Positions 5,365-28,176 of a DNA stretch of 64,000 bases are shown piece by piece. The notes below the pieces were generated by a model that saw only the letters and a program-made list of their open reading frames with translations, made no database searches and was not told the origin of the DNA. The stretch's first letter is position 1; each line of letters starts with the position of its first letter. A program made the translations under genes and the position numbers. The DNA comes from Balanoglossus misakiensis (lineage: Eukaryota; Animalia; Hemichordata): NCBI GenBank assembly GCA_040954595.2, contig CM082597.2, forward strand, positions 3,024,265-3,088,264, given 5' to 3'.

Positions 5365-8300
5365 CTATTTATCACCCTTTGCTTGGGCGGCTGTCTTTTG
5401 AATGTCCACCGTTGCATACTCTGTTGCTTCGTCCTGCACTGGGGGTTTATTGGGCTGCGCGGCACTAGGTGTTCCAGCATGATCCAAATCAGCGTACACG
5501 AGACCCTCCACATTGTTATCTGTATTGTACTGATAGTGAACAAAGTTGAAAAAAAAACATGTTATTGATATCTCAGGAAACTCAAAATAACCAGTTGACC
5601 TTTTGAAATGGAAGTGTTGGTTATAGTCACACAAGGGTATTTAACTTGTGCACTCTGCCCTGATTTCAATCAAGGTGCCTCCAGTTAAACAGTTTTTGAG
5701 TAAACAACAAAATGGCTAACGGTACATGTGTTTTACAGGTCCTGGAGGTGGTTCTTTGAAGGAAGTTCAGTGTTTTAACCCGGAAATGCGATTATTTAGC
5801 ATGGGGAATTATGATAACTCTGATGTGCACAGTTTAGTTCCTGCTTGGATTGTCAGGAAAATTGAAACGTGCAATAATTCAAGACAGGTTCATAAATAAC
5901 TCACCATTCTTGGTGGTTCTTGTGGTGGCATTTCCTCATCTTTTTGATCTAATGGGAAATGATAAAAAGTCGAGAGAGAATATTACAACATAAACCAGTA
6001 ATCAATTTAGAGCCATTTCCTGAATAACAGCCATATATCTTAATTTTCTCATCGATATAAAGTGAAATTTTCAAGAAGTCATAGAGTCTTAAAATCAGCA
6101 ATGCGTACCAGTATCTGGTTTCTTCGAGATGCTATCCTTCTTATCCTGGTATAAATGAAATAAATGTCATTAGTAAGAATGTCTTGAGATCAAAATTCAG
6201 CGTGTTGAACACGAAATATGCTATGTGCTCAGGATAGTGAGAACCCACATTTGTTCTGTGTTGGGTTATTTTGGTTAATTTACTGCAGGCTATATGTGTA
6301 ATGTACCAATTAATGACATTAAATAGAGAGTCAAGCTCAGAATACTGAAATGGAAATGGTGCAAAATGTAAAAAACGGGAGAGAAAAAATTGTCCACTGT
6401 CACCTTTTTAATGGACTTCTTGGTGGGTTGTGAATATAGATTAGCAGGGTCATCAATATCGTCTACCTTTCCACCAGTGTTGGTTTTACCGAATGAAGAT
6501 ATAGGTTCCTCTGCCAAGGAAAAGAGAAGAATTCATCAGACATTAATGAGTTTGCGATGACTGATGCATCATTTATGACAATAGTACAGTTTCCATCTCT
6601 TTTGTGTTTACTGCTAGAGTAGACAACGTTCCAGAGTCACAACCCGAAAAAGAATTAAACTTTAAGTACCGGTGAACATATCAGATCCTCGCTTGTCCTC
6701 CATGCCATTAGCAGCCTCAGATCCCGTACCTACAGGGCTTGGTCGAATTCTTTCTGGATTGTCGTAATCATTGAATGCCTCTGGAGGTCTGTTATAGAAA
6801 ACACAAATGTGTTCATCAAACTCATAAAATCAGCTGCATACTTCTGCAACTTCTACAGAACTAAACAAATATGATCTATCTATCCGTCAATTCATCTATC
6901 GTCTGCCAAATATCCGTCAATGTATCTGGCCTCAACCCATCCACCCATCTGTCCCAATACCCACTCGTCCGAATCCATCTATCCATCCAACCACAAAACT
7001 GTATCTTCCCCTATTTCTGTCACTCTTGTTTATCTAGAATGTTATTGTACTTACGAATCATAATTTAATGCAGCCATCTCTGAAACAAAAGAGAATATAA
7101 TTAATGGTATCCGCATATGAACCATCTCTTTCAATGTAAACTTACTTCATGAATAACTTTAAATCCCACAATTGATTTGTAATATTATCCTTACCTGAAT
7201 CAACGTTTCGGTTATCAGTTGGCTTTTTCTGACGTTTAATCATGACAGCGAGCACTATTATGATGATAATAAGGAGAAGAATTCCACCAGAAATGCTGGC
7301 AATGAGGGGGACGGGTATTTGTGTATTTGGCTGTTTAGCTGAAAGTTGAAAGTAAATTATTCAGAAATAAATCATGCATGTCTGAAATGTATCCAGTGAA
7401 TGTTCACTTTGCCATCATTCAAAACGTTGCCCATGTCACATGAAAGTGTGCTTACATGTCATGTAATCTATACTTTGTTGCGTTCATATTTTTTTATATT
7501 GACACAGACCAGGCACACTGTAGGTGAATAGCCATGCATACACCATAAATATTTAGTCATAAACAAAATTATTATTACACATTGTTAGTACCTGTCAGAA
7601 TTGCAATAAAAGAATTTAGGTCTACGCATCTTACTTGGTTTTTCCTCAACAGTTAGCTGTATTTTATGAACATCTGAACCAACATAATTAGTGGCGGTGC
7701 ATGTGTACTCCCCTCCATCAACATCTGAGACACTCGCAATGCGCAAAATCTCGCCATCTCCTCTGTGTGTGCTGCCTTTCATCCAAGTGATGGTGGCCAA
7801 GGGATAAGCATCGACGTTGCATTGCAGGTTGACTGCCTCTCCAATGGTTGCTGTCACAGCATCAACTCCCTTGTTGGTTATACTTGGCGCGTCTAAAATG
7901 TAATGAGACATATGGCAGATCAATAATGTTGTCCAGTTATCAAATAAAATTACTAAGTCAGTCTCTATGGATATAGAGCACTTATTCAATAGACTATCCA
8001 CAATCTCGGCAAATTGTTGGGGGATTATGATCCATACACTAGCTTACTCTTGCTTGGTGGTCAGTGCCACAAAATTTACTTATCTACCAGTTAACGAATT
8101 GATTGATTGATTCGACCAACCTGTGGTCTGTATACACGGTCTCTACTGTAGATCTGTTGATAATGCTGTTAAGCTGTAAAGTACCAGAATTTATTATCAT
8201 AGTCATAAAAATGACTTGACGTTCTATAGGTATATTCTGCATACGTGATTTAGTTATAATTAGGGCCTACTCACAGTGAACAATGATCAATACTGATGAA

Positions 8301-11300
8301 CTTGTTCCATTGTCAAAACTGCCGTCAACAAATTCTGTGGTGGCCGCACAGTAGTAACTGCCATTACGCCATCGCTCAATAACCCTGAGGTCAAATGTGT
8401 GATTTGTGACCCCGTCCTCATTCACCATGGTGTCGACCTCGTTGGTTGTTTCATTAACATGATACAGTGTAATAGAGTGTGGATCCGGAATACCGTCAGT
8501 CACTGTACATGTTATCTTGGTTTGGTTGCCTTCTATGAGAACATCAGTTGGCCCAGTAACTTCAACATCTGCAATGTCTGGTAGGTGAGAAGTTCATAAA
8601 ATGAAAATTAATTCAAAATTGGAATCAATATACAGCACAAAACATATTCCAAAATATTTCATATTCATGAAATTAAAAAAGTGTTTGCACTCAAATAAAA
8701 TTAGAGTCTGACTTACATTCCACAATGATCTCAGTTGTATCAAATCCAATACCAACATCTCCATCATCGAATGCAGTTTCAGCTGAACAGTTATACACAC
8801 CAGCGTCCAGACGTTTGATCATTTCAATGGTGTGAACCAATTCTGATGTGATTATGTCACCATCCTTTGTCCATTCCTGTGTTGCCGGTGGATTAGAAGT
8901 AACTGTACATTGAAGAGTCACTTTGCCATTTTCTTTAATCCTGTTAGAAGTTGCGTTTACTACAATTTCAGGTCCAACTGTTAAAATGAGCGGAAGTTAT
9001 TACTAATTAGGTAAATTAAGCATTAACATTAAATAATGTAAACGACACATACTATATATTTTGCAAGGTTTATCAACTATCAATCAATACTTACATTGGA
9101 CATCGAGATAAGTTCTTTTATTTCCTGAGCCCTCTGTGCCATCATAATATGTGTTATTTCCAATACACACATAAAATCCAGTCATACTGCGAATGACGTC
9201 ATTCAAGATAAGTTTTGAACCAGACATTGTATCCCCTTGAGGTAGACGCCATGTGAATTCGACACTAGCCGGGTTCGCATCTAAGACGTTACATATAAGT
9301 GTGACATTCTCATACTCTCTAGAAACATACCCCATGGGCAATGCAAGTCTTGGTGGATCTACAAAAAAAGTTATACTTTAGTGTGATACATTTGTTAATT
9401 GACTTTTGTCATATTTTAAGTCCCTTTGAGTTTCAAAAGAGGATGTAAATTAATTCATGGAAGGTAACTACCACACAAAAATTCATATAAATGCACCTAT
9501 AATATAAAGAAAACTTACACTGTACATCAAGGTTAAACGCCTGTGTGTCGGTCATGGTAACATTGTTCCAAAATGTAGTCTTTGCTTCACAAGTATAGTC
9601 TCCACTTTGATGGCGCATGACATTTTCAAATCTCAGTATTTCACTATTGGAGACGGTGCCTGTTGTTGTCATCCACTGAACATGTGGTGCAGGATTGGAA
9701 CTGACGTTGCATAGTTTTTCAAATTCCCTGTCTTCAACTTCAAATATTGTCTGTTCAAAGTCTTCAATTTGCGGCGAATCTATGTTAAGAGAACTCATGA
9801 TTAGTCTTTAAGTTAAGCTCCAAATATAACCTAGACTGAATAACAATATATATAATCCCAGGAATGTTTGTTTTAAATGGCAGTTTTATAAATTGAATTA
9901 AGTGTTACTTACATTGAACGTCAACAAAAATCTCAGTACTTCCAGTGCCTTCCGATTCATCCCAGAATTCATTTGTTGCAATACATGTGTGCAAACCATG
10001 ATCATCCCTTGAAACCGTCGTTAGGTTCAACCATCTACTGTCATTACCAGAAGTGTCTTGCCAATAAATTGCAGTAACATCAGGATTGGCATCAATAACG
10101 CTACATTCTATATATATGCCATCACCAGTAATCACAGAACCACTGTTGCTAGCATCTCCATGAACTGTAGCTTGAAGGGAAGCGTTGTCTAATATAATGA
10201 GAACAAATAATCATAAATATGTAATCAATCAAAGAAGGTGTCACAATGTCTCAGTTATTGACAACGTCAATTTTTATATATATTCTCTTATAAATCTATA
10301 CTCACACTGTACGTCCAGTTCAATCATGTCACTTCCGTATCCTTGGTTTTTGTTGAAAAATGTATTATTGGCATGACACGTGTAAATTCCCCCGTCTGTT
10401 CTCTTCACATTGCTGAGGTGGAGCTGGGAAGTATTGTTAAGCCTGCTGTTGTCAGGGCCTGTCCATGAAACAACTGCTGGTGGGTTTGCATCTACTTCGC
10501 AGGATGCATTGTATTGTTTTCCGTCTATTACTTTCCCATTACTTTTGTCAGTTATAGTTGCAAATGGTCTGTCTGTTGAAAACATGATACATTTATACAA
10601 TATTTATAGCATGATTAATGCTTAGTAGCCAACTTTGTTTTAGTAGCTGTGAAATAGTCTACCTTGCATGAATAAAGTAATGTTGATCTCAGACGTAACA
10701 AACAGCGTCATGAATGTAAGTGAAAATGAATAGTGAGTATTTCACAACTGAGAATAAATGGTTTCTAGCTTGCTCTGATAGTTTATCATAACAGTAACAG
10801 TTGCCATATTAATCACACTGCGGAATTGACAGTAATGATAAATTTGTAAATGAATTATACTTGAACTTACAATGCACACTCAGTTCTACGGATGCAGTAC
10901 CATTCCCCTTCGTACCATCATAAAAAGCATTCTGAGCGACACATTTATACGTCCCGTTATCTTCCCTGGTGGCATTTTCCAGTATGAGCGTCAGGTTCTC
11001 ATAAATGTCACCATTGGGTAATAGCCAATACCAATTATCAATTTTATCCGGGTTTCCCATCTCCTGAATTTCACACTCAGCAAAGTAGTTATCACCTTCT
11101 ACAACCACATTGTCTGTTGTCTTGGTAACATTCACGATCGGCGGAACTAAAACGACAAAATGCACAGTGTGTGTTATATCAAAGTACGCTTATGAGATTA
11201 ATACACTGAATAAATATTTACAAATCTCAGGACACCTATAGTTTGAAATGAATTTTGAATCAGCTGCCCAAGCATCAAAGAATGTCAAGATACTGAAACC

Positions 11301-13174
11301 CGTTCACGCGAAATTTTCTTTTGAACCCAAGGAAGTTATGAAACTCTGTAGGGATTTACATTGACAGAATACTGCAGAAGAGAGCTCCTACAGTTGAAAT
11401 ACCAGTACTATATCTGAAATGTTATCTCAGGCTAATAAAGCATCCTCAATATTGGCAACATTGACTTGTGTACCTTAATTTGTATATACAATAATGAAAA
11501 TTAACACTTGATGTTATAGTTGGAAAATTGTGTGTTCCTAAATTAGGATTCTGCATGTTGAATTATAGAAATAAAACCAAGATATTTTAACAACTGGTTG
11601 CTGAAAATGAATCATATAATAGAGATGTCCCTTACACTCTACGTTCATTGTGATACTCTCACACATTAAGTTGCTTTCGCTTGCCAGGGGTAGCGTGATG
11701 TAATCAATTCCACAATATAGAGTGGCTCCATTTTCCTCTCTGGTAAATGATCTTGAAAATATGTGTTCTTGTGATGCATTTCTAGACTCTTCTTGACCAT
11801 TCACAATCCACACTGTTTCACCTGGTGGTACTCCATTTTCACTGCTGCAATTGAATATTGTTTCCTGTCCTTGTATTGTTGTTTGTCCCGGATAAACTTG
11901 ACATGTTGGACCCGATTCTGCAGTGAAATAAAACACATACATTACTTGAGTCATGACCTGTCTGACACTTTTTTCTACATGTGAACATTCATCATTTGTC
12001 TTGTTCAACTACTTTCACCGTGATAGGTATGTGCACTGCTACCTGCCAATGTCGAAATAAACACGCAAGAAATTTTGGCAGTGTCTAATTATCCCTAGCT
12101 GATAGTATTGGCTAAAATAAAGCTGGCATGGACTTAAAAGCAAGTGGAAAATTTGCAAGTTGCTGCTGATAGTTGACCCACATGTAAGACGCTATCTTTG
12201 TGATTCAGGCTTCTAGATGTAAAAGCATTGTACAATTGTTGCAATATTCCCTGTGACCTCATTGAAATATGCACTGCTTTATATGTTTGCATATTCAAAG
12301 TGGAATACTATTCATTTTTAATTCAAAACTATGCTACTGAATAGATATGGACAGATCAAATACATTAAAACAGTGGCTGTTTCAAAATAGACAGATCTTA
12401 CCTATAACATACAAGGTGATGCGTTTAGATACTGAATTATCATATGCTTTGCACTCGTGGTCCCTTTGAAATTCCGTTGTAACATTTTCTATATACAGAT
12501 GATAGTAATATTCATTTCCCATGGAACCTATCTTCACGGCATAATCATGATTGGCGATAGTACTACCAAGTGATATCTGCGCAGGCGTGTCTGCTGTATA
12601 CCTATACCAAGATAATAGCTTGCCTCCACGTTCGACAACACTGCAGTTTATTTGCGTTGTTGTATTGATAATGGCCAAGGTTGGTATTGGTTCTTCTTTG
12701 AATTCAATTGTCCGACCTGTAAATAAAACAGTATCTAACGTCCATCTGCTATTATATTTATCTCATGTAATTATTTTGGCTTACGCCTGGCAGTATATTT
12801 GCATAGGCGAGATAGTAAGCTTACTTAATGTTAGTTTTTTCTAGAAATGCTCTTGTAAGTAAATTTAACACTCGAGCTAGAGTCATGAAACTGAAAAATA
12901 AAAGAAATACAACATAATTTTTTTATGGTACTTTGTGCTCTTGATAAACCAGCAATATCAGAAAAAATATATTTGATACACCAATCACAACAGCCATTCT
13001 TAAAATATCGATTGCACAGACAGGAAGGTAGACAGACCAGTGTGACATGTTTTGCGCAGGGCTAAACCGATCACATTGTCTAAAGTAGATGCACTTACAT
13101 GTCCCCACAAGAACTGCAACGATCAGAATAAAATCGATGAATTTAACCTTGTTCTCTGCGATGAAGATCCCCAT
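5365..13174 (-). CDS. Receptor A: type I membrane protein, 10 Ig domains (nephrin/Kirrel/CD22-like), cytoplasmic ITIM+ITSM; about 1139 aa, 18 exons
   Basis: GT-AG exons with consistent phases: 13174-13099 (signal MGIFIAENKVKFIDFILIVAVLVGT). Ig1-10: 12716-12402, 11917-11636, 11146-10871, 10572-10306, 10188-9913, 9779-9519, 9358-9095, 8977-8717, 8577-8275, 7892-7635 (all phase 1-1, C...W...C pattern). TM 7338-7195 (LIASISGGILLLIIIIIVLAVMIKRQKK). Tail: 7079-7055, 6788-6730 (alternative donor 6670), 6510-6404, 6145-6109, 5948-5905, 5529-5365 (GLVYADLD...ATEYATVD, stop TAG). Confidence 0.9.
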
Positions 13175-16100
13175 GATGATTCAAATCCTACCCACGGGTA
13201 GAATTATCGGAACACAATTTGAGCACACAGCTTACCCACCACATTGCTTACAGCAATGGCGCAAATAGCATTTGCAAACTAGGTTCACTGCACAGTAGTA
13301 CCATCCACGAAATTCAGCTTTAACACTATCTCCAGAGGGCGTTGTACATTTTCCTCTGACATGAGTTGAAATGTATACGAGGACAAGCGGGATTAATGAC
13401 CAACTGGCGTATGATACTTCAAAATGAATGCCATTATTACAAGCATTCTATGACACTTTCAATATTTATGACATTTCAGAACATCACAGGGAAATGAATA
13501 TCAGAAGACGGACATATATGGACGAATTTAAGGCAAACGTGTTTATAAGCTGTACCTGTTTTGTAACAGTATGTGCCTTTCTTGCAGGAAAATGTGAGTT
13601 TTACACTTTACAAAATGTTGAGTTTACCAGCCTAATTTTGATTGCATAATAGCAACGAAAATTATGGTCACTTAACTGGATTTCTGCCATATTACCTATG
13701 TTTGGAAATGCTACATGTATAATACAAATGCGACATAGACATACAAGTCAGCCAATGTAAATTCAAATGTGTATGAATTCTAGGGCGTCTTTGCTCAAAT
13801 GTTTTCCTAGAAAGAACTTTCTTGATAGAAATATAGATATGGTTGCGATGTGGTGTCTTGTACATGTTAGACCTTGGTTTTACATGCAGGTTATTCAATT
13901 GAATTCAAAGAAGAACCAATACCAACCTTGGCCATTATCAATACAACAACGCAAATAAACTGCAGTGTTGTCGAACGTGGAGGCAAACCATTAACTTGGT
14001 ATTGGCATACTGCAGACAAGTCTACGCAGATATCTCTTGATAGTACTCTCGCTGATGATGATTATGCCATGAAGATAGGTTCCATGGGAAATGAATATTA
14101 TTATCATCTGTATATAGAAAACGTTACAACGAAATTTCAAAGAGACCACGAGTGCAGAGCATTTGATGGATCGATATCTAAATGCATCACCTTGTATGTT
14201 ATAGGTAAGATCGGGATGTTTAATGTATTTGATCTGTCCATGAATCTATTCAGTGAATTATATAATAGTTTTGAATTAAAAATGAATGTTGCATCGATTT
14301 GAATATGGCAATATATTAAAATTCTGCATATTTAAATGAGATTGATATTTACCAGAGGGAATATCACAACAAATGTACAATGCATATAAATCTAGAAGTC
14401 TACCGGCAATAATAGTGTCTTACAGATGGGTAAAAATATCAGAAGCAACAGGCACAGTTTCCACTTGCTTTTCAGTGCATGCCAGCTTTACTTTCACCAT
14501 AACTATCAACTATGAATGGGTATACACTGTCCAAATCTTTTGCGTTTTTACCTTGAATGCTGGCAGATAGCAGTGTCCCTAGCACCAGAATGAAAGTAGA
14601 TGGCCAATGAATATGAATGCAAGCATGTAGAAAAAATGGGTCAAAATATGATACAGCAATTGTACAAATGTGTGTGTGTGGATATCTTTCGCATTACAGG
14701 TAATATATCATTAAATAGGATCATGGCTCAAGTAATGTTTGTGTTATTTCACTTTATCCACAGAGTCTGGTCCAACTTGTCAGGTTTATCCAGGACAAAC
14801 AACAATACAAGGACAGGAAACAATATTCAATTGCAGCAGTGAAAATGGAGTACCACCAGGTGAAACAGTGTGGATTGTGAATGGTCAAGAAGAGTCTAGA
14901 AATGCATCACAAGAACACATATTTTCAAGATCATTTACCAGAGAGGAAAATGGAGCCACTCTATATTGTGGTATTGAATACATCACGCTACCCCCGGCAA
15001 GCGAAAGCAACTTAATGTGTGAGAGTATCACAATGAATGTACAATGTAAGGGAAAACTCTATCATATGATTCATATTCAGCCACCAAATGTTGTAAACAC
15101 ACACACACAATCTTAATTTATGAACACATCATTTTTACAACTAACAACGAGAACTCTAATTCTCAAGAACTCATGCTCAAGCTATTTCAGATGTTTTGAC
15201 AGCAACACGCTTTGGGGCTAATTATTCTTTCATCTTCAAATCTATATAGACGATGCGACACTCGCAACTGAAGTTCATGGATATGCTAGCGACAATGGTT
15301 CTGTAATTAATGGCGATGACATATATCTGAAATGTAGTGTTATTGATGCCAATCCCACTGTCACTGGAATATACTGGCAAGACAATCCTGGCGTATACAG
15401 TAGATGGTTGAACCTAACAGCAGTTTCAAGGGATGATCATGGTTTGCACAAGTGCATTGCAACAAATGAATTTTGGGATCAATCGGTAGGCACTGGAAGT
15501 ACTGAGATTTTTGTTGACGTTCAATGTAAGTAACACTTAATTAAATTTATAAAACTGCCATTTAAAACAAACATTCCTGGGATTATATATATTGTTATTC
15601 AGTCTAGGTTATATTTGGAGCTTAACTTAAGGACTAATCACATGAGTTTTTTTAATAACATAGATTCACCGCAAATTGAAGACTTTGAACAGACAATATT
15701 TGAAGTTGAAGACAGGGAATTTGAAAAACTATGCAACGTCAGTTCCAATCCTCCACCACATGTTCAGTGGATGACAACAACAGGCACTGTCTCCAATAGT
15801 GAAATACTGAGATTTGAAAATATCATGCGCGATCAAAGTGGAGACTATACTTGTGAAGCAAAAACTACATTTTGGAACAATGTTACCGTGACCGACACAC
15901 AGACGTTTAACCTTGATGTACAGTGTAAGTTTATTTTCAATTATAATGAAGTGGCATTTATATTAATTTACATGGTGTAGTAATCGTCAGTAAATTAATT
16001 CACAGTCTCTTTTAAAACTCAAAGGGATTTGAAATACCTGTATAACGAAAGTAAATTAACAAATGTCTCACACTGAAGTATATCTTTTTTTCTTAGATCC

Positions 16101-17178
16101 ACCAAGACTTGGATTGCCCATGGGGTATGTTTCTAGAGAGTATGAGAATGTCACACTTATATGTAACGTCTTAGATGCGAACCCGGCTAGTGTCGAATTC
16201 ACATGGCTTCTACCTCAAGGGGATAAAATGTCTGGTTCAAAACTTATCCTGAATGACGTCATTCGCAGTATGACTGGATTATATGTGTGTATTGGAAATA
16301 ACACATATTATGATGGCACAGAGGGCTCAGGAACTAAAACAACTTATCTTGATGTCCAATGTAAGTATTGATTGATTGTTGATAAACCTTACAAAATATA
16401 TAGTATGTGTCGTTTACATTATTTAACGTTAATGCTTAATTTACCTTATTAGTAATAAGTTCCGTTCATTTTAACAGTTGGACCTGAAATTGTAGTAGAC
16501 GCAACTTCTAACAGGATTAAAGAAAATGGCAAAGTGACTCTTCAATGTACAGTTACTTCTAATCCACCGGCAACACACGAATGGACAAAGGATGGTGACG
16601 TAATCACATCAGAATTGATTCACACCATTGACATGATCAAACGTCAGGATGCTGGTGTGTATAAATGTTCAGCTGAAACTGCATTCGATGATGGAGATGT
16701 TGATATTGGATTTGATACAACTGAGGTCATTGTGGAATGTAAGTCAGACTCTAATTTTATTTGAGTGCAAACACTTTTTTAATTTCATGAATATGAAATA
16801 TTTTGGAAAAGCATGTGCTGTATATTGATTCCAATTTTGAATTAATTTTCATTTTATGAACTTCTCACCTACAAGACATTGCAAATGTTGAAGTTACTGG
16901 GCCAACCGATGTTCTCATAGAAGGCAACCAAACCAAGATAACATGTACAGTGACTGACGGTATCCCAGATCCACACTCTATTACACTCTACCATGTTAAT
17001 GAAACAACCAATGAGGTCGACACCATGGTAAATGAGGACGGAGTCATAAACCACATTTTTGAGTTCAGGGTGATTGAACGATGGCGTCATGGCAGTTACT
17101 ACTGTGCAGCCACCACAGAATTTGTTGACGGCAGCGTTGAGAGTGGAAAGAGTGCAGAAATACCAGTATTTGTTCACT
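8275..17178. repeat. Large imperfect inverted repeat: arm 8275-12716 versus arm 13890-17178
   Basis: Ig exons of A and B have identical lengths (315, 282, 276, 261, 264, 261, 303 nt) and largely identical sequence. Several introns are near-identical too (9780-9912 vs 15526-15663; 8978-9094 vs 16361-16477; 8578-8716 vs 16739-16875). Confidence 0.92.
13175..13517. promoter_or_regulatory. Putative shared bidirectional promoter/5'UTRs of receptors A and B
   Basis: Only 343 bp separate the divergent start codons (13174 minus; 13518 plus, with an alternative in-frame ATG at 13494). Confidence 0.55.
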
Positions 17179-20100
17179 GTGAGTATTTTTTGTAAAAATT
17201 GGATTGTCTGCTGAATCATCATGTTTACATGAAGGCAGTCATTCATTTACCAATGACTCGTCATTGTATCACATAATTGCAGATCAACCTACAATACTCA
17301 ACAAGACAGGTGATGTAATTGATGCAGCTATTGGGGATACAATCACTTTTGCCTGTACTGTGGATGCCTACCCAGACGCTACCATCACATGGACTAAAAA
17401 CGGCAGTGTGCTGCAGGAAGGATCTACCAATACTTTTACAGTTAGTGATGCTGTGGTAGAAGATGAAGGAATGTATAAGTGTACTGCACATAATTATCTT
17501 GGCTATGATGAATATACTATTCAACTCAAAGTAAACATGGCAAATGGTAAGCACCATTTATTCCTAACCATTACATTTTTCGATTCTGATGATAATGATG
17601 ATTGTGATGATCAGTCAAAAGAATATGAAACTAACAACAGTATAAAATGTCAATGTCCATTTTCAGTTTCATCCACGTCACCACCACTTGTGACAATTAT
17701 ATCATCAGTGGTCTGTGTAGTGGTCGTGGTTGCAGTGACAACCATTATTGTGTTTAAAAGGTGCAGAAACACGAAGCATCCACGACAGGTAAAACAGGTA
17801 AATCGTATTTTAAACATAAATGTGTTTTATTTCATATTTATTGACCCCATAGAGATGAATAGAATTGGTTAGGTAGGACACAGGTGACTACAGAAATTAG
17901 ACCATTCTTTCATGCAAATGCATGATCAGAATTTTAAGAACATCATGCAGTGTATATGTAGAGTCAACTAAGTATACCAAGCTGGTCCTTCATTGTTGAA
18001 TTACGTAGTTGGGAGTATGTAGAAATGGGGCCTTAACGCCTGATAGAAGATATATCTAAAGACAGGGGTCGAGAAAGACAATCCAGAGTTAACACAAGGA
18101 ATGTGGCCAGTAGTTATAACTCTTGATCAGTTTTATATCACCGTTATTTGTGTTCTTCAATCCAGAGAGAAGAAAGTGAACCCTACGAAGACTTGCAGAG
18201 CGGATACCAGGTATGATACATGCTTGGGTTTTAGATTCCATCCTGAATTGACCACATCTCTATTTTCTGCAAAGAATAATTAACTATGGCCCAATTGTTT
18301 ACTTAATTACTAAAAAAATAGATTTCCCATTGTGAAAGGGCCAATTTTCAATCCCTGATGCTCGCATTAGTTGTTGACAATATGTGATGGATTGACTTGA
18401 TAAGATTTTGAACAAGGCTTTCCACCACATTCACCTCCATCTACGATTTCTTATTTATAGCCTGCAGAGTATACATCTCTTGAATTACCGGTATACACTA
18501 ATCCGATACCTGACAATGAACCTGTCTACACAAAAGTTGGAGACGTGGTGCTGGAATTTCCCCGAGAACTCGTTCGGAAGGGAGATTTCATCGGAGAAGG
18601 CACCTTTGGCAAAGTCTTCAAAGCTAAGGCACGTGACTTTGCTGGTAAAGATGGAGTGACGGTGTTGGCACTGAAGATGTTGAAAGGTAAATGTGTTTAT
18701 ATCACTGCAAACACCTGTGAATTTTAATTTAAAATCATTTACTAATTTGTTCATTGAGGATGAAGATTATAACCCTTACAAGGAACACAAACCATTTATC
18801 AGTCTGTCCAGGTAATATTTCCATACATGCATGTATTTATTGTCAATTGCTTTCTTCAGATAATGCCTCAGATGAGGATAGAATAAAATTCACTTCTGAA
18901 TTGGATTTGCTGAAACGTGTTGGTCAACATGAACATATCGTATGCATTAGAGGATGCTGTATTGACAAAGGTATGGTGTATTATATTCTGTCATTGACTC
19001 TTGTATGTATGTATGTATGTATGTATGTATGTATGTATGTATGTATGTATGTATGTATGGTATGAATAAAAATTTATGTGATGATAAAGATAACATTTGT
19101 CGCATACTACAACCACAGAACCCCGCTATATTTTGATGGAATTCATGTCAATCGGTAACCTGAAGAAATATTTAAGAGACTGTCATAAAGCAAACACGGA
19201 TAGTTATGCCAACGCCAGAGTCAAGTTATTCGACTTGAAAAATGAGGATCTCATCACATTTGCGCGGCAAGTTGCTAGTGGAATGGAATATCTGGCATCG
19301 AAAGAGGTAGGGGGACAATAGTTATGTATAGATACATGAGCTACTAGCTTACACCAATGACAGTGCGTAAATTTGCATTCTGTACCTTTGAGCAGATATG
19401 CCACAAATAGTGGTAAACACCTGAAGCATATACTTGCTAGCATATGTACCTTAGAAACTGCTCTGGCAACAGATGGTATAAAGCTGAAACAACTAACAAC
19501 CACTGGTGATTGAATGGAGAATACGAACAGTGATTTGAAGGGGCTCTATACAAACAACCACAAGGGAATCATAGTATATTAATCTGATTAATCTGATTTT
19601 ATCTTGATTGCCTAGTGTGTGCATGGTGATCTTGCTGCTAGGAACATCTTAATGAATGCCAACAGGGTTTGTAAAGTGACGAACTTTGGTCGTATTGAGG
19701 ACACAAAGATGGGTGAAGATGCGGACAGTAAACAGGTACTGAAAACACATGCGTGAAGTATAATGATGCAGACAGTAAATAGGTTCTGAACCACAACTAA
19801 CACATATATTATAAATATGCCGATTAATATATATACTGACAATAATCACAATTTATGTTTGTTCCAAAGAAACGCCTGCCAATTCGTTGGATGGCTCCTG
19901 AAGTCTTGTTTTCATCCGAGTATTCCACCCAGGGTGACGTTTGGTCATTTGGAGTGGTTGTTTGGGAGATCATCACGTTGGGTAATGAACAGTAAAATAA
20001 ATAAGTAAATAAATAAATAAAGGTAGTATGCAAGAAATGAAAGAAAGAATGAATGGATTTAATTAATTAATTATTTACCCAAGATGGGTAATGACGAAAG

Positions 20101-20830
20101 TTCATCTTTCATATCAATGGATACAATTCTTCCAGGTAACACACCATATCCGGGAATGTCATCCCAAGACGTTATCCAATTCCTTCAAGAAGAAGGTCGA
20201 ATGAGTAAACCGAAGTATTGCAACAGCGATCTGTAAGTACGGAACAAAGAGATTGTAGAGAGGAGAGACACAATGGGGAGGATGGGTGCTGAATAAGTCA
20301 AAACTAATTGGCAGACTAAACTGGACCATATAAACACGACATGGATTATATTGAGGTGTTTCTCTAAACAACTGCAATGTAAGACTGAATTGGTATCTGA
20401 AGGAAGAACAATAAGTTATGTTTTTTCATCAATAGGTACGTGTTAATGATGAACTGCTGGTCTCAGAAAGCAAGCAGACGACCATCATTCACTCAACTAG
20501 TTCGGGAACTGAAGGAATTTGAGAAAGAGAAAGAGGTATGTACCGGTATGCATAATTCAAGACTATCCGAAATTCAGTTTTCAACATTCTGCATTCGTGA
20601 TCTCTGCCATATTTGTTAGTGTTTATCGTCAAGTAACATCAGGGAAGTTCAGTGAAATGCTGGAGTCAATCTAAACTGAAAATTATCGACTTGAAGAATA
20701 AGCTTCCCAAGCATGTTTTTCCAAAACGCCTACTCATAAATTTGACAACACCTTTATTTTCTCTGTACAGCCCTATGTCGATATACACGGTGCGTATGAA
20801 GATGTGCAAGGACTGGAAATGAAAGACTGA
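13518..20830 (+). CDS. Receptor B: 8-Ig receptor tyrosine kinase-like protein (FGFR/RET-type kinase domain, probable pseudokinase) with juxtamembrane ITAM; about 1160 aa, 19 exons
   Basis: Exons: 13518-13593 (signal [25 protein letters not shown]). Ig: 13890-14204, 14764-15045, 15250-15525, 15664-15924, 16097-16360, 16478-16738, 16876-17178, 17283-17546. TM 17667-17788 (or 17797). Then 18166-18210 ([15 protein letters not shown]), 18461-18686 (PAEYTSL...LEFPRE...IGEGTFGKV...LALKMLK), 18860-18970, 19119-19306, 19616-19735 (VHGDLAARN...VTNFG), 19870-19981 (LPIRWMAPE...[12 protein letters not shown]), 20136-20232 (GNTPYPG), 20436-20535 ([12 protein letters not shown]), 20771-20830 (stop TGA). 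The frame stays open throughout. Confidence 0.9.
19003..19039. repeat. (TATG)n microsatellite in an intron of B
   Basis: gtatgtatgtatg... about 9 units. Confidence 0.9.
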
Positions 20831-21139
20831 CTGCACGATTCATCGCTCTGCTCTGACTGCAATTTAGACTGACCTTCTTAGCAAATTTCCTCACAGAAAA
20901 CAGCAAGACATTTCAACATGTGTGATGCAGAAGATTAAATCATATGCTTGCCTTATAACCCTACTATAACCCAACTATAGAAAGAAACGCAAATGCACTT
21001 TAAGTAGAAGTTGGCAATCTCCAGAACATCTGCTTGTAGCATTCTATACATATGCCAATGAAATCATAATATTCAATATAATCCTAAAAACAGACGACAC
21101 AGACATTTCTTAATTTCAATGTAAAAGATCAATTTCACA

Positions 21140-21145
21140 TTTATT
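21140..21145 (-). terminator. Candidate polyadenylation signal (AATAAA) of PRDM10
   Basis: tttatt on the plus strand about 1.1 kb past the PRDM10 stop. PRDM10 and receptor B converge tail to tail. Confidence 0.35.
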
Positions 21146-22280
21146 TCCAATATGACAGATAATAAGTCATTCCTATATAATTCCAGAGATAAATCAAAAT
21201 TGAACCACAAAAAAGCAATATACAAGCAGACATATTGACACTGACACAAACTAACAATAACTGGAATTTTTGAAGAAAAAAAATCTGAAAACTACAAGGT
21301 TAAATTCTTGTCTCAATTTCAAGTAAACACTTCAACAATTTATATGATATGCAGCCCCTAAAGGGCTGGGACCAAAGCAGGCCAACAATTACTTGTAGCT
21401 CATCTCAATCTTGATTTAATCAGAAAGCAAGGTGTTATTGTTGTCATGTTTATAATTAAAGATTTGGTTTAAACTAGAAAAGAAAATACATCATCCGGAC
21501 AATGGGGTACAGTGTACAATGCAAGCAGCTACATTTGAAACTGCTGACAGTATGAAACTCAAAGTGGTATGCTTCTACACAAGTACCAGTAACTGCATAC
21601 CATGTAAACACCTAAGGAAATCTTTTTAAAATATAAAATGAGACAACAGCCAAATATCTTCGTTTTGACATTTTCGCAAAGGGACAAAATTCAGCTTGTA
21701 AAGCCCCGTTCTGTGTAGTGTAACCCTGGTACAAACTCTCACCACAACTAATCAGAACTGAATGGGAATTAAACTGTTCCAAAAAACAAGCAGATTGTAA
21801 ATGGTTCTGCGACCTTATATGAAAATGGGACACAATGAAAATGTCATGGTTAGCATTTGCTTAGATAAGAAAATGTTGATACCGTATTATAGTGATAATT
21901 TCTGGGAGTATGCGTAGTTATTGTCTCCAATATTTCACAAGCTAAGCAATATTTTTCTGGCTGAAACAATTCTCAACATTAAATTTAGTAGTGGTTTCAA
22001 ATGTTACGATTTTCAGAAGTGATACAACTTTCAAAACTCGTATATGGCCCCTATACTTTAAAATACACATGGCGCCAAAATGTACAGCCAGAGATGAATA
22101 TATTCAAACAGGCTAAGTCCACAAAGTTTTCTTCACAAAGGAAAAATGCAGCAGAAATGAGAAGGATTGAAACTACGAACTCTGGTGAGCTAGCATTTTT
22201 GTCAAGTGACAACATGAAATGCATGAATAGAGTTTTGAATGAAGTCCAAAAGTTCAACTGCTGTTTTGTGACTGTGGTGC

Positions 22281-22786
22281 TCAGCGATAGTTGTAGTTCT
22301 GCCACGCGCGTGAAACGAACACCTGGTTTCCCTGTACGGTGACGGGTACTTGTATCTGCGTTGTGACTTGTTGGTGCTGCTGCTGTTGTTGTTGGGCCTG
22401 CTGTTGTTGGGCCTGCTGCTGCTGTTGGGTTTGTTGTTGCTGCTGCTGCTGTTGCTGGGGCTGTTGCTGCGTCTGGATGGGACTCATGGGCTGCGGCGCG
22501 TTCTGCAGGTGAGTGAGCTGCGGCTGCTGGAAGTGGGTGGGCGACTGCCGCAGGTGGCTGACGTCCACGGTGGAGTGGGACACCGGGATGGCCTGCTGCA
22601 CCAGGTGCGTCTGCACAGTCTGCTGCGCGATCCGCTGCGTGATCTGCTGGTACTCGGCTGGCTGCGGGCGGTACTCGCTCAGCGTCTGCGACAGCTCGCT
22701 CATGGCCTGTGTCAGCAGGTCTGCTGCTTGGACGGCCTCTTGCTGGGATGTTACGACGGCCTGTTCGATGAATCTCACTTGCGTTG

Positions 22787-22818
<32 letters not shown>

Positions 22819-25800
22819 ACCACTTGGGAGATCACTCTCTGCACTGCTGGGTCGGTGGTGATGGTCGTTTCGGTGACTGGCTGCGGCGTTCCCGTGGGCG
22901 TCGGTTGCTGCAGTTGCAGCTGCGGTTGGAGAGAACCAGCAGCTGAGGCAGCCACAACAGCCGCTGGACCCGACACTGCAATCTGTGCCGGTATCTGGGC
23001 TTGCACTGTAATGGGAGCAGTCAAGGCATGCTGTGTGGCTAGCGTAGCCACTTGTATTGGAGTGGGCTGCGCCACAACTGCGACGACCGTGGGTGTGTGC
23101 GTCTGCTGACCAGCCATGTGCACTGATGTAGCCTGGGCCGCGGCTGCTGCTTGGGCGGCTGCTGCAGCAGCCTGCATTGGCTCCATGTGCTTCTTGCGAA
23201 CGTGGTCCATCATCTTGGCTTTGGAGCTGTACTGGCGAGGACAGTGAGCGCACGCGAAGTAGTGCGTTGTCGTCGTCCCTGCAGGCGCCGTATGGGTGTC
23301 GATGTAACCACCGTCCTCCGAGCTCTTGCTTTTGCGAATGCTCGGTGGCAGCTCGGCGCCCGGGTGGTTCTTGATGATATGTATCTTGCGCTTGCTGCTG
23401 CTCTTGTACACCTTGTCGCAGTAGTTGCAGAAGTAGTTGCGGTTGGGCTTGACGATGGGCAGGCTCAGCTCCGGCACGGTCTCCGGGCGGATCTCCGGAT
23501 GCCGCTTGGCCAGGTGGTTCACCAGCATTCCGCGGCGACGGAAGCCGATCAGACAGATGCGGCATTTGAAGGTGAACTGGTCGAGGTCTGTGGGTGGAAC
23601 CTTGGGCTTGAATGGCGGTTTCTTCGGGCGGTTGGCTTTCATGGCCTGCTTGGCTTCCCTCTCCGGGTTGTGCATCCGGAGCATGTGCTCCTTGAGTTTG
23701 TCTTTCCGCTTGAACTGTTTGCCGCAGTTGGCGCACAGGAAGTCTTTGCGGTCGGAGTGCCTCAGCATGTGGAGCTTCAGCTTGTCGGGTCTGGGGAATA
23801 TCTTCTCGCACTCCGGGCAGGGATACTCCTTGCTGGAATGGAACCCGCGGATGTGCTTCCTCACTTGCGGATACTCCGTGAAAGTCTTGCTACAGTGGGG
23901 ACAGTGGAATATCCCGTTCACGCTGTGGACCACCACGTGTTCTTTCAGCGAGTCGGTGCGGTCGAACCCCTCGTCGCAAAACGGGCACCTGTAGTACTTC
24001 TGGCCACTGTGTGTCTTCATGTGGCAGGCTATGGCGGAGTTATTCAGGAAACGCTTGCAGCAGATCTCGCACTGGATTGGTTTCTCGGACTCGCGGGAAT
24101 GCAGCTCCATGTGGCGGTCGAACTTGATTCTCTCGCGGAAGGGCTTGTTGCAGGTATCGCAGCGGTAAGCAACTCTCGCCAGAGAACGCCTCACCATGGT
24201 GGATTTCATCTTGGGTTTCCCATGCGCGGTAGCATGAATCGCCAGCAACTTCTGATCGTTGAACAGTTCATCACAGTCAGGACATCTCAAGTCGACTTTG
24301 TCTAGTTCATTCTCAGCTAGCTGCGGCACCGCTGATAGGCTACCAGGAACGTTTGCGTCGGTGGAACTTCCTGCTACTTGTTCGACCTGGAGAACGGCGG
24401 CCCGTTCCACATCGGCCATGATGTTTGTGCCTGCCTCCATGACGTCGTTTACATTGCCAGTGGAAACGGTCACCTGGCCATCGGCGTCAACCAGGGTTTG
24501 TACGGCCACAGGTACTATATCCTCGGGGAGGACAGCAGTCCCGTTCTGTACAGCCACAGCCGCAGATCCGTTCTGCGCTGCCGCAGTCGCCTCTTCCAGA
24601 CTATCGTTTTCATCTTGCGTGTGAGTCAACATGTGTAACGTCAGCAATCTAGCGCTTTCAAACTCCAGATCGCACTGGGAGCACGTCAAGTCACTCTCGC
24701 TTTCCCCGCTCTCTCCCCCGTCGCCGACTTTATCTTTGTACACCACGTTGCCGTCCTCATCCACGCTCTCCCCTCGCTCTTCGTGCCGACGCATGTGTCG
24801 CGTGCGGTTGTAGACGTGCGAGAACTTCTTCGCGCAGATCGGACAGGTGAAGTTTTTCTCTCCGGAATGCATCACTAGGTGGCGCTGTAGACTGTACGAT
24901 CTCGGGAATGTCTTGGCACAGATATTACACGAGAACGGTTCCTTCTTGCGGGCTCTTGCCCTCTGCACTTTGGCCAAAGCAACCTTCTTCTGAGTAAGAG
25001 TGCCATAGCGCCGTCGTCTTCCCCTTTTGCCCTTTGGTTTTGGTCTTGTGTGCAGAGCATCATGAGTGGCTAGATGTTTCTGTAGGAGTTCGGACGATCG
25101 GAATCGCTTTGGACATTCAAAACAGGGCCATGTATTCTCCTTGTCTTGCATTTCTGAAAAAATACAACAGTTTGAATTAATAATCTTTTTAAGAGTGTGT
25201 TCAGGTAAATTTGTTTCAAAGCCGAGCTTACAACAGCTTATAAGTGAGAACCACTGCAATGTCGCACAAACACGTAAATTAACTGTATGTACCTTGTAAT
25301 TCCTCAGCAGTGATTTCAAAGACATCGGCACCGACATACTCAGCATAGGACGCTGCGTACCAGACTCTCATTTCTTGCTTGGGGTCAATATTGCGGATAG
25401 TAGCAAAGAAGATGTGCCCGTTGTTCTGATAGGCTATCAGATTCTGCTCGCTGTGACAGGTTGCTGGACGCACAAACATCATCCAGTTGCTTTCGTTCTC
25501 ATCACCGGCGTCTAAATACACAGTGCCTCCATCATTACTCTGGAGCTGTAGAGAAAATCAACAACCAAGTCTTGTATTGTGAATTCGAATATGGTGTTCT
25601 ATGGTACAATAAAGATCTATATATACATGAAAGCTATGCTCGAACAGTAACATTTATTTTCTCAGTAAAATCGTACAAGATGCTCACATAACACGAACCC
25701 ATACTAGAAAATTCACTTCTATATTTGTATACCTTTGGGCTAAATTATTGAGTGTGAGTCAAGAGTGACCAAGGCCAGCTTTGGTCTGTACACAGAATTT

Positions 25801-28176
25801 TTTTAAACTGCTTTATTATATCACTACTCACCTTCCATGTCATTCCATCAATCGGAGCTATTGCTACCAGTTTTCCCTCCAGTGGGCCAAACTGTGTTTT
25901 CTTTGGAATGGCTCGCTTGGCAAACACACCTGTAAGTAGGGAATGTGTAAGAGTGTGTATATCAGTTCTATTGTTGATGTTTGTTTGTTTGTTTGTTTTT
26001 GGGGGGGGCTGGTTAAGTGACAATTTGGTTTGATTTTTCACTTTCCAAATTCCCTTCATACACGTAGATCTGGAAAATTTTCTGTGTATTTAGAAAATGT
26101 ATTGCGATCAAAAGTTGAAATGTACTTACCAACTTTGTCATCATCAACCTTGAATATCTGCAGCAGGTTAGGGAGGCTGGCTCTAGCTCTTGTCAATACC
26201 GGTTTGTCTGATATCGTCTGAAGAGCCCCATCTTCTCCAACTGTTGAAAAAAACACGAGAATTGTTACATCTTACATGTGATTCAACTGCTTAGCATTCT
26301 CAGTGTAATCAAAAGTAATTGAATGGTTAAAGCTGATGTATTTCCCTGTGATCGGGCTATGGTAAGTGAACTGAGATCAAAAACTTCCCAAGCATTATCA
26401 CAGGCGTTTAATTTCTGCCCATGAAATATCAACTCCTTGACTCAATGGGAATAAGCCAAGCAGAAACCACTGGGCATTTATACAACTATCTGATATTAAG
26501 ATTTTGCTCAAGGACACAACATCGCGGCCATGAAGTAACCAGCCTCAGATAGAAAATCCACAGCCATGTCCGTGTCTGGGAATTGAACCCACAACCCTAT
26601 GGCTGTAAGTCTGCTACCCTGACCACTGACGATATCTCCTGGAAAGCCAATACAAATGTACATTGTGTAAACAGACCACTGGATACACAGATGCTATACA
26701 CAATACTTACACAGCTCCTTTGTATCGAATGCCACTTTGACTTGCGCTTTCATATCACCTGATAGAACATCATCATCATCCTCGTCATCTTCATCCTCGT
26801 CGTCTTCATCCTCATCCTCCTCTTCTTCTTCATCAGTCTCCATGGCGATGTCTCTGCCAACATCTATGAGGTTGAGAAATACACATTAGCACTTCAATCA
26901 CTTTGAACTTGTGCTATACACGAATAAAGAAACGTTTCGAATTTTAGGACCATACTCACTCTGGGAACTGGTTCCTGGGACAGGCATGTTGCCATCGACC
27001 GCCATTTCAATGTCCGTTCTATGGAATGTCACAGGTGTCATCATTTCTACGTCGGTCGTGGTGGACGGTCCCACTGTTGGATCGCTGGGTTCGTCATGGA
27101 TGTGTGTTATGAGCGTGACACTGCTACCACTCACTGTTGATAAAATGCAGAAGAGGGAAATCAATACAGTATGTTGATTAATAAACAAATTTCCTATTAA
27201 ATGAATCAGCTGTATTACCTCAGCCTAGGTAAGTCCAATTTAGCACCCCACTGTTGAAAACCATTGCCATATACATAATAAATAAAAATCTACCTTTATT
27301 TTATCCAATAGTACAGTCTACATGTATCTATTACATTGGCACAAGTTACACAAGCAAAATTAGTTATTGTTGCTATGGTAATGACAATCCACACAAACAA
27401 ACGATTTTCACTAATAAACACTGAGGGCGCCATATCATGTAGATCCAGCGTCCACCTTTTACAGTGAGAATACCCACCGGGCTCTTGACCAGTTGCTTCG
27501 TTGTCATCGCTGGGTCCGATGCCGACACCCTCGGCTTCAGCAGACATTGTGGTCTCGTACTCCGTGACCGTGGATTCTGGCAAGCCACTTCCCGATGGTG
27601 CCGTGTCGTCCACCACTGCCATGGTCTCCGAGTGGTCGTACGCCTGTCCGCTGGGTTCAGGACCACTGCCATCATGGACTATGCCAGGACTGTAGCCAGT
27701 TGCCTGTGAATTCAACATACAAGCTTGTTAATACAGTACACACCAAGAATTAATCTCCTAATTTTGGGCTAACATTAAAGGTATACAGTCACCTCCAATT
27801 TACATACACCCATATATACATGTATGGCTGAAATGGCGCATTTGAGCATTCTAAAGAACATTTTTTCGCGTGTGCCACCCACTGAAAATCTGTGATTGGC
27901 TAGATCTCAATTTGCCATGGTAACTATAGCTAATTTTTCATAGGTGACCGTATACCTTTAACAATGCATTGAAATACTCAATGATCTCAGAAATGATCTC
28001 CCCATCAAGGACAGATATATACACAATGAAATGAAACTTACATGTACCTGCATTGCGGCCCCAGAGCTCGACACTGGCTCCATGTTCGCAGCGTCACCAC
28101 CGCCATGATGCACCGTGACTATACTGGCATGGGGCGGCCACACAGGTTGATTGTTGTCGCTGCTGCCTGGTTCCAT
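22281..28176 (-). CDS. PRDM10: PR/SET domain zinc finger protein 10; about 1338 aa, 8 coding exons
   Basis: Exons 28176-28048, 27703-27478, 27133-26960, 26863-26711 (acidic D/E run), 26240-26130 ([12 protein letters not shown]), 25929-25832 ([16 protein letters not shown]), 25545-25293 (NWMMFVRPA...EQNLIAYQ...[10 protein letters not shown]), 25153-22281. The last exon holds the C2H2 array with PRDM10-typical [30 protein letters not shown] and [17 protein letters not shown], a Q-rich tail and [14 protein letters not shown]. Confidence 0.93.
22376..22450 (-). repeat. Coding CAG/CAA polyglutamine tract in the PRDM10 C-terminus (second tract 22786-22817)
   Basis: Translates as [34 protein letters not shown]. 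Confidence 0.9.
26340..26630 (-). mobile_element. tRNA-derived SINE in a PRDM10 intron
   Basis: Minus strand reads agtggtcagggtagcagact (A-box-like)...gggttcaattccc (B box, 26578-26590), followed by gttgtgtccttgagcaaaa, a central motif typical of SINE conserved domains. The 3' boundary is approximate. Confidence 0.65.
27775..27961. mobile_element. Complete 187-bp MITE with TTAA ends (Kolobok/T2-like)
   Basis: Terminal inverted repeats ttaaaggtatacagtcacct ... aggtgaccgtatacctttaa (one mismatch), TTAA at both ends, and a second copy at 1-239. Confidence 0.85.

What the first reader, a model, noticed from the sequence alone, without database searches (positions are those of the whole stretch)
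5365..20830. Head-to-head paired Ig receptors: an ITIM/ITSM inhibitory receptor and an ITAM-bearing receptor (pseudo)kinase with a shared ectodomain
Seen: two divergently transcribed genes about 340 bp apart with homologous, mostly near-identical Ig ectodomains but unrelated intracellular parts. A ends in ITIM+ITSM; B has an ITAM plus a tyrosine kinase domain. Established: vertebrate paired immune receptors (SIGLEC5/14, head-to-head SIGLEC11/16, SIRPalpha/beta, KIR, LILR) couple similar ectodomains to opposite outputs, are homogenised by gene conversion, and mostly borrow their ITAM from adaptors such as DAP12 or FcRgamma. Inference: an independently evolved invertebrate paired-receptor system for immunity or self/non-self recognition, in which the activating member carries its own ITAM on an RTK scaffold. 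I do not know of this architecture being described, but could not search.
Basis: partly seen in the sequence, partly recalled or inferred. Interest (0 to 1): 0.95.

Follow-up and report, generated by a model that had tools for sequence, protein, structure and literature searches.

The report
Acorn-worm paired receptors with dead kinase
Two back-to-back genes, likely from an acorn worm, encode receptors with almost the same outer domains but different insides, one with brake-type motifs and one with accelerator-type motifs on a predicted dead kinase, and they likely form an invertebrate counterpart of the opposing immune receptor pairs of vertebrates.

Summary
Observation confirmed. Gene A (minus, 13174-5365): 18 exons, 10 Ig domains, a TM and an ITIM+ITSM tail. 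Gene B (plus, 13518-20830): 19 exons, 8 Ig domains, a TM, YEDL-x8-YTSL and a tyrosine-kinase domain with Asn for the DFG Asp (predicted pseudokinase). Both are stop-free; start codons are 343 bp apart; seven Ig exon pairs are 76-97% identical. One run is spliced at four modelled A introns; B's expression is untested.

The closest relatives are hemichordate. Ptychodera flava has an A-type and a B-type protein, on contigs of the same length. Two mid-ectodomain Ig domains group by species (80-93% within, 41-51% between), while TM and tails keep their type: concerted evolution of ectodomains, as in vertebrate opposing pairs. The dead-kinase change is shared by the P. flava clade. The tandem YxxL/I is positionally conserved, but the strict ITAM spacing is B's alone. 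A third, about 17% divergent first Ig exon exists in the same sample.

Verdict: new variant of paired opposing Ig receptors; not a Siglec. Immune role, ligand, co-expression and signalling are inferred.

The parts
5365..13174 (-). Gene A: signal peptide, 10 Ig domains, TM, 179-aa tail with ITIM+ITSM; 18 coding exons, 1159 aa
   Evidence: spliced joints at 4 modelled introns in run X3
5485..5502 (-). A ITIM (LVYADL), last exon
   Evidence: conserved in P0056, P0047, P0043
5407..5424 (-). A ITSM (TEYATV), Tyr 26 residues after the ITIM Tyr
   Evidence: spacing 24-26 in three relatives
7195..7338 (-). A transmembrane exon, no charged residue in the TM
10306..11146 (-). A Ig domains 3 and 4, absent from B
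12402..12716 (-). A N-terminal V-like Ig exon; 81% aa identical to B's; a third version about 17% divergent is in the same sample
13175..13517 (.). 343-nt region between the start codons; inferred shared (bidirectional) promoter
   Evidence: spanned without differences by X1 contig 12681-13925
13518..20830 (+). Gene B: signal peptide, 8 Ig domains, TM, tandem YxxL, tyrosine-kinase-like domain; 19 coding exons, 1160 aa
8268..10166 (-). Left arm of the main inverted duplication (A Ig 5-9 with introns), 91.7% identical to 15272-17185
15272..17185 (+). Right arm of the main inverted duplication (B Ig 3-7 with introns)
17667..17788 (+). B transmembrane exon, no charged residue in the TM; an in-frame second donor lies 9 nt further on
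18184..18481 (+). B ITAM-type motif YEDL-x8-YTSL, split over two exons (18184-18195 and 18470-18481)
18461..20535 (+). B kinase exons; Gly loop, beta3 Lys, alphaC Glu and catalytic Asp kept; HRD is HGD (19622); DFG is NFG (19682-19690); activation loop short and without Tyr

Best explanation
A and B are two intact, back-to-back Ig-receptor genes whose outer domains are kept alike within a species while their membrane and inner parts stay different, and they likely act as an opposing pair that reads the same ligand: A would damp signalling through its ITIM+ITSM, and B would activate through tandem YxxL motifs carried on a predicted dead kinase. Shown: anatomy, open frames, splicing of A, A- and B-type proteins in Ptychodera flava, species-wise grouping of two Ig domains, conserved motifs, the shared DFG-to-Asn change. 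Inferred: gene conversion between the inverted arms as the homogenising process; co-expression from the 343-nt spacer; a Src-family kinase (not B) phosphorylates both tails; A recruits an SHP-type tandem-SH2 phosphatase and B a Syk/Shark- or other SH2-type effector; the kinase fold serves as a scaffold; the ligand is a self-surface or pathogen molecule bound by the variable first domain.
For: Ig domain 8: A/B 90%, P. flava A-type/B-type (P0056/P0001) 80%, across species 45-51%; domain 7: 93%, 72% (partial), 41-50%; TM exon the other way round: A/P0056 54%, A/B 15%. The domain 7-8 tree joins A+B (100/100) and rejects A+P0056 (p-AU 5e-31) and B+P0001 (4e-9); the proximal Ig+TM tree rejects A+B (0.027) and P0056+P0001 (0.007). 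This is the pattern called merohomogenization for vertebrate opposing pairs (PMC3210942, abstract and Discussion part 1). P0001, P0163 and P0056 have near-consecutive accessions on contigs of length 655,253. ITIM+ITSM in P0056, P0047, P0043 with Tyr spacing 24-26. YxxL/I-x6-12-YxxL/I in the juxtamembrane region of 8 of 13 hemichordate kinases listed against 1 of 117 other kinases with a TM. All 7 clade members whose model holds the motif have Asn at the DFG Asp; 113 of 120 other kinases keep DFG. dN/dS between the arms is 0.42 over 7 exon pairs. A third, divergent first domain is in the same sample.
Against: Adjacent inverted copies homogenise passively; introns are as alike as exons (94-97% for 3 of 10 intron comparisons), so homogenisation alone does not prove a shared ligand. 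The first Ig domain, the likely ligand binder, is less alike (81%) than domains further in. In P. flava only P0056/P0001 look homogenised, over 147 residues of two partial models; the tree does not resolve them as a pair, and P0056 is 50-59% to other B-types. The strict ITAM spacer (6-8) is met by B alone; six P. flava relatives have 10; P0001, P0011 and P0162 lack the pair. No B-type dead kinase was found in Glandiceps or Saccoglossus; their listed kinases have HRD/DFG and fall outside the clade. The first domain's nearest folds include adhesion proteins (neuroplastin, Neph1) as well as BTLA.
Confidence: 0.6

Rival explanations
1. A non-immune adhesion or growth-signalling module: A is a Neph/echinoid-like adhesion receptor with SHP2 docking sites, and B a PTK7- or FLOR-1-like pseudokinase co-receptor whose YxxL motifs are ordinary SH2 docking sites. 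Homogenisation is a by-product of the inverted, adjacent layout.
For: Nearest folds of domain 1 include neuroplastin, Neph1 and Dpr/DIP. V + CD80-like C2 + I-set string as in nephrin-like proteins. ITAM spacing not conserved. Introns converted along with exons.
Against: Lineage-restricted expansion in P. flava (at least 10 related kinase models), low identity between species and a third divergent first domain suit recognition genes better than developmental ones (inference). ITIM+ITSM order and spacing are conserved in three genera-level lineages.
Confidence: 0.25
2. B is a decoy or a decaying chimera: an old RTK that captured A's ectodomain, lost catalysis and now only soaks up ligand, or is no longer expressed.
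For: The DFG Asp is lost. Two of B's acceptors are the weaker AAG. Several P. flava B-type models are truncated.
Against: 19 exons without stop or frameshift. The kinase domain is 58% identical to P. flava P0162. The Asn change is shared, so the domain has been kept since before the species split. Juxtamembrane tyrosines align across relatives.
Confidence: 0.12
3. Assembly artefact: two haplotypes or a fold-back joined into an inverted pair.
For: Near-identical inverted arms are a known assembly trap. No listed contig spans the whole region, and the DNA runs may be the source sample.
Against: The arms differ by 3-16% in exons, by two whole exons, and in unrelated 3' halves. A 1245-nt contig spans both first exons without a difference. 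A second species has both types.
Confidence: 0.03

Closest known systems
SIGLEC11/SIGLEC16 (PMC5701461, passages read)
   Same: Head-to-head inhibitory and activating Ig receptors with ectodomain exons kept alike by gene conversion in each lineage.
   Different: Siglec-16 has no motif of its own and uses an ITAM adaptor; genes are about 9 kb apart. Here 343 bp, no charged TM residue, own tandem YxxL plus a kinase fold, and no Siglec-type first domain.
CEACAM1 versus CEACAM3/4 (PMC11646289, passages read)
   Same: ITIM/ITSM receptor and a partner with its own ITAM-like motif, in opposite orientation, homogenised by conversion.
   Different: No kinase domain; vertebrate; conversion centres on the N exon, whereas here the most alike domains are Ig 2 and the middle ones.
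Hydractinia Alr family (10.1101/2022.03.04.482883, passages) and Botryllus FF/FcoR (PMC12582321, abstract and section 13)
   Same: Invertebrate Ig receptors with ITAM/hemITAM or ITIM tails, clustered and polymorphic; Botryllus genes come as cognate pairs.
   Different: No kinase domain in the parts I read; Botryllus pairs are receptor plus co-receptor of different families, not a shared ectodomain. No sequence relationship appeared in my searches.
C. elegans OLD-1/FLOR-1 (PMC10523662, abstract read)
   Same: A lineage-specific receptor tyrosine pseudokinase acting in invertebrate immune signalling.
   Different: FLOR-1 partners an active kinase in one activating pathway; no ITIM partner or shared Ig ectodomain in the abstract.
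FGFR/RET/Cad96Ca-type RTKs and RTK pseudokinases (PTK7)
   Same: B-type kinase is nearest to FGFR among solved structures of normal length (P0002) and is auto-named FGFR- or Cad96Ca-like.
   Different: It forms its own clade outside FGFR, RET, Cad96Ca and PTK7 rows, has 8 Ig domains, HGD/NFG and no activation-loop Tyr.

Membership tests
Paired opposing immune receptors | Highly similar ectodomains in linked genes | tested here: met
   76-97% for 7 Ig exon pairs, 343 bp apart
Paired opposing immune receptors | Inhibitory member with ITIM/ITSM | tested here: met
   Motifs present, shuffle p 0.00015, conserved in 3 relatives; function untested
Paired opposing immune receptors | Activating member with own ITAM or charged TM for an adaptor | tested here: inconclusive
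   B meets Yxx[IL]x6-9Yxx[IL] (definition); no charged TM residue; P. flava relatives have spacer 10 or lack a half
Paired opposing immune receptors | Ectodomains homogenised after speciation while signalling parts stay type-specific | tested here: met
   Identity matrices and AU tests; firm for A/B, weaker for the P. flava pair (partial models)
Paired opposing immune receptors | Co-expression in the same immune cells, shared ligand, opposite outputs | not testable with these tools
   Only contigs of one sample were available
Siglec/CD22 | V-set domain with CxxxxC on strand B and the partner Cys moved to strand E | tested here: not met
   A and B have one B-strand and one F-strand Cys; 3 of 4 CD22 hits inspected show the CxxxxC plus E-strand pattern clearly, the fourth is a doubtful model; strand assignment for CD22 is recalled
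Siglec/CD22 | Sialic-acid-binding Arg on strand F | tested here: inconclusive
   B has Arg after the F-strand Cys, A has Lys, three hemichordate relatives have neither
Active receptor tyrosine kinase | beta3 Lys, catalytic Asp and DFG Asp all present | tested here: not met
   Lys and catalytic Asp kept, DFG Asp is Asn; lacking one of the three defines a pseudokinase by sequence (PMC4718504, passages); some such domains keep activity
FGFR, RET, Cad96Ca or PTK7 subfamily | Kinase domain groups with the subfamily | tested here: not met
   B plus 8 P. flava rows form a separate clade, SH-aLRT 99, quick tree of 25 rows; STYK1 and TIE were not among the rows

The most novel reading that the evidence does not exclude
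Acorn worms independently built a polymorphic self/non-self or pathogen-decoy system in which one ITIM+ITSM receptor is matched by activating partners made from a receptor tyrosine kinase that lost catalysis and now serves as a built-in ITAM scaffold. The pair shares a promoter, gene conversion keeps it on the same ligand, and the first Ig domain is hypervariable between haplotypes.
Probability: 0.3. Interest if true: 0.9.

Novelty: new variant of a known kind. Interest (0 to 1): 0.74.

Why it matters
If it holds, the vertebrate design of opposing receptors with homogenised ectodomains also arose in a hemichordate, with an activating arm built a different way: a dead RTK carrying tandem YxxL motifs rather than an adaptor. 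It would give an entry point to immune or self-recognition signalling in a phylum where my searches found nothing on ITAM/ITIM receptors, and it shows that automatic names (hemicentin-, NCAM-, FGFR-, Cad96Ca-like) hide this family. It is testable in P. flava, which has the genes.

Tried and rejected
No whole genome is held, so copy number and the presence of Syk, Shark or SHP genes were not checked. A single Ig exon searched against longer proteins gave no hit.

No RNA holder was listed by the run search. Run X3, labelled 'DNA?', behaves as RNA (spliced joints in A) but gave no cover on B's exons at 90% or on 11400-15300 at 80%; it is shallow and lies at 3' ends, so this blank says nothing on B's expression. 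X3 contigs at 21114-21685 were considered as B's 3' UTR and rejected: the only AATAAA there is on the minus strand at 21140, which fits the PRDM neighbour.

Positive selection between the arms: not shown (overall 0.42; one exon at 2.7 rests on 1 synonymous and 9 non-synonymous changes). Siglec and FGFR/RET/PTK7 membership rejected. No further family member elsewhere in the window. The DFG tally for other kinases used a faulty pattern and was replaced; P0012 and P0269 were dropped from the kinase tree for lack of a Gly-loop match. A homodimer prediction for domain 1 and a wide structural search did not run, so homophilic binding is open. No earlier scan finding matched. Ten paper searches were run; five aimed at this system found no description. 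The library lacks most subscription papers, and I read no supplements.

Full report
Observation. I rebuilt both genes from the window. Gene A runs on the minus strand from 13174 to 5365 in 18 exons (1159 aa): signal peptide, 10 Ig domains, an uncharged TM and a 179-aa tail ending in LVYADL and TEYATV. Gene B runs on the plus strand from 13518 to 20830 in 19 exons (1160 aa): signal peptide, 8 Ig domains, an uncharged TM, YEDL-x8-YTSL and a tyrosine-kinase-type domain. All introns are GT-AG and neither frame holds a stop. The start codons are 343 nt apart. Pfam confirms Ig families on 9 of 10 A and 8 of 8 B Ig exons at E<=0.01 and the kinase family on 6 of 7 kinase exons tested. The first domain, weak in Pfam, is an Ig fold in the model (pLDDT 80), with neuroplastin, BTLA and Neph1 as top structural matches.

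The duplication. The ectodomain arms are an inverted duplication with introns: 91.7% over 1916 nt, plus two shorter blocks. Protein identity per exon is 81, 97, 76, 94, 93, 90 and 84%, then 44% for the membrane-proximal Ig and about 14% for the TM exon; A's third and fourth Ig exons have no partner. Synonymous divergence is patchy, 0.02 to 0.30, with identical runs up to 179 nt; dN/dS over seven exon pairs is 0.42. Patchiness fits conversion tracts of different age (inference).

Reality. Contigs of two DNA runs cover the region, and one contig spans both first exons (12681-13925) with no difference; these runs may be the source of the assembly, so this is not independent. A third run shows joints at exactly four modelled A introns (5530/5908, 5948/6109, 6510/6670, 8577/8717), so A is transcribed and spliced as modelled there. 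B's expression is untested.

Relatives. The best hits to B's first kinase exon are Ptychodera flava proteins, with weaker hits in Glandiceps; the ectodomain search returns P. flava, Glandiceps and Saccoglossus proteins ahead of all others. The window is therefore likely from an acorn worm (inference). Of 19 hemichordate ectodomain hits inspected, many of them partial, 3 carry A's tail: P0056 (P. flava), P0047 and P0043 (Glandiceps), each with ITIM then ITSM and 24-26 residues between the tyrosines. P0056 (XP_070550563) and the B-type kinases P0001 and P0163 (XP_070550559, 557) lie on contigs of identical length, so likely on one scaffold; their orientation is unknown.

Concerted evolution. For Ig domain 8, A/B are 90% and P0056/P0001 80% identical, against 45-51% across species; for the TM exon A/P0056 are 54% and A/B 15%. 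Trees agree: domains 7-8 join A with B (100/100) and reject grouping by receptor type (p-AU 5e-31 and 4e-9), while proximal Ig plus TM rejects grouping by species (0.027, 0.007) (one search repeats the first result with other rows). So both types predate the split from P. flava, and the outer domains were homogenised afterwards. This matches the pattern described for vertebrate opposing pairs (PMC3210942, abstract and first part of the Discussion). Against: the P. flava pair rests on 147 residues of partial models and is not resolved as a clade; other P. flava B-types are only 50-59% to P0056.

The kinase. B keeps the Gly loop, beta3 Lys, alphaC Glu and catalytic Asp but reads HGD and NFG, with a short activation loop lacking Tyr. 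Loss of the cation-binding Asp marks a pseudokinase by sequence (PMC4718504, passages). B and 8 P. flava kinases form one clade (SH-aLRT 99, quick tree of 25 rows); all 7 with the motif in their model have Asn there, against DFG in 113 of 120 other kinases. The Glandiceps and Saccoglossus kinases found are intact and outside the clade. The loss is thus old, and the domain has been kept.

The ITAM. YEDL-x8-YTSL meets the consensus used for Hydractinia (spacer 6-9) and is rare in shuffles (0.0035). Both half-sites align with YQ[ED][LI] and Y[TSA][ST][LI] in relatives. With spacer 6-12 the motif occurs in 8 of 13 hemichordate kinases listed and 1 of 117 other kinases with a TM (an amphioxus RTK); with spacer 6-8 in B alone; P0001, P0011 and P0162 lack the pair and P0003 is a fragment. 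A conserved tandem SH2-docking site is well supported; a Syk-type ITAM is likely but not shown.

Variation. The same sample holds a third first-domain exon, with 54 differences and 4 gaps over 321 nt against A, and a contig 14% different at B's first exon. Of 27 substitutions shown, 18 fall where A and B agree, 5 match B and 4 match neither; 14 are at codon positions 1-2. It is a very divergent allele or a paralogue; I cannot tell which.

Mechanism. Most likely (0.6): the two receptors are made together and meet the same ligand; a Src-family kinase phosphorylates both tails; A recruits an SHP-type phosphatase and B an activating SH2 effector, with the dead kinase as scaffold; conversion keeps B matched to A, as expected if pathogens or non-self cells engage the inhibitory receptor. 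The roles of ITIM, ITSM and ITAM are carried over from vertebrate and insect work (partly, partly recalled). Rivals: an adhesion or growth module with passive homogenisation (0.25), a decoy or decaying B (0.12), an artefact (0.03).

Comparison. It works like SIGLEC11/16 (head-to-head, converted) and CEACAM1 versus CEACAM3/4 (own ITAM-like motif, opposite orientation), but is no Siglec (cysteine pattern). Invertebrate Ig receptors with ITAM or ITIM tails are known from Hydractinia and Botryllus, a paired receptor family from hagfish (reference-list title only), and an immune RTK pseudokinase from C. elegans (abstract). I found no paper on a shared-ectodomain ITIM receptor paired with an RTK or pseudokinase, nor on hemichordate ITAM/ITIM receptors; the library lacks most subscription papers and I read no supplements.

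Verdict. Real; a new variant of a known kind. Interest 0.74; 0.9 if immune function and opposite signalling are shown.

Noticed in passing
window 22281-26089 and beyond, minus strand: PR/SET plus C2H2 zinc-finger gene (Pfam), resembling PRDM10 from recall, convergent with B; its likely poly(A) signal is at 21140, about 310 nt from B's stop.
   Followed up: partly
window 55261-55623 +: An Ig exon weakly like the first domain of Saccoglossus P0045 (E 7e-6; Pfam), part of a separate gene; the ORF at 62185-62526 looks like the end of a seven-TM receptor (recalled, no Pfam hit).
   Followed up: partly
window 7244-7326: Nine differences in 83 nt between two versions of A's TM exon in the DNA runs, 6 at third codon positions: high allelic divergence.
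   Followed up: partly
window 18342-18376 and 18590: A short repeat in the intron that splits B's ITAM, and a contig that joins B's kinase exon only from 18590, perhaps a further B-like copy.
   Followed up: no
proteins P0009, P0043, P0047 (Glandiceps): An intact Ig-RTK with YxxL-x9-YxxL has an accession close to two ITIM+ITSM receptors on a contig of the same length, but its ectodomain is only 23-36% like theirs: possibly the state before kinase loss.
   Followed up: partly
protein P0122 (Branchiostoma): A many-Ig RTK of amphioxus with a juxtamembrane YxxL-x11-YxxL.
   Followed up: no
proteins P0011, P0028 (P. flava): A second pseudokinase subgroup that has also lost the catalytic Asp (HGE, NIG).
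   Followed up: no
window 30995-31612 -: A 206-codon open frame without a Pfam match.
   Followed up: no
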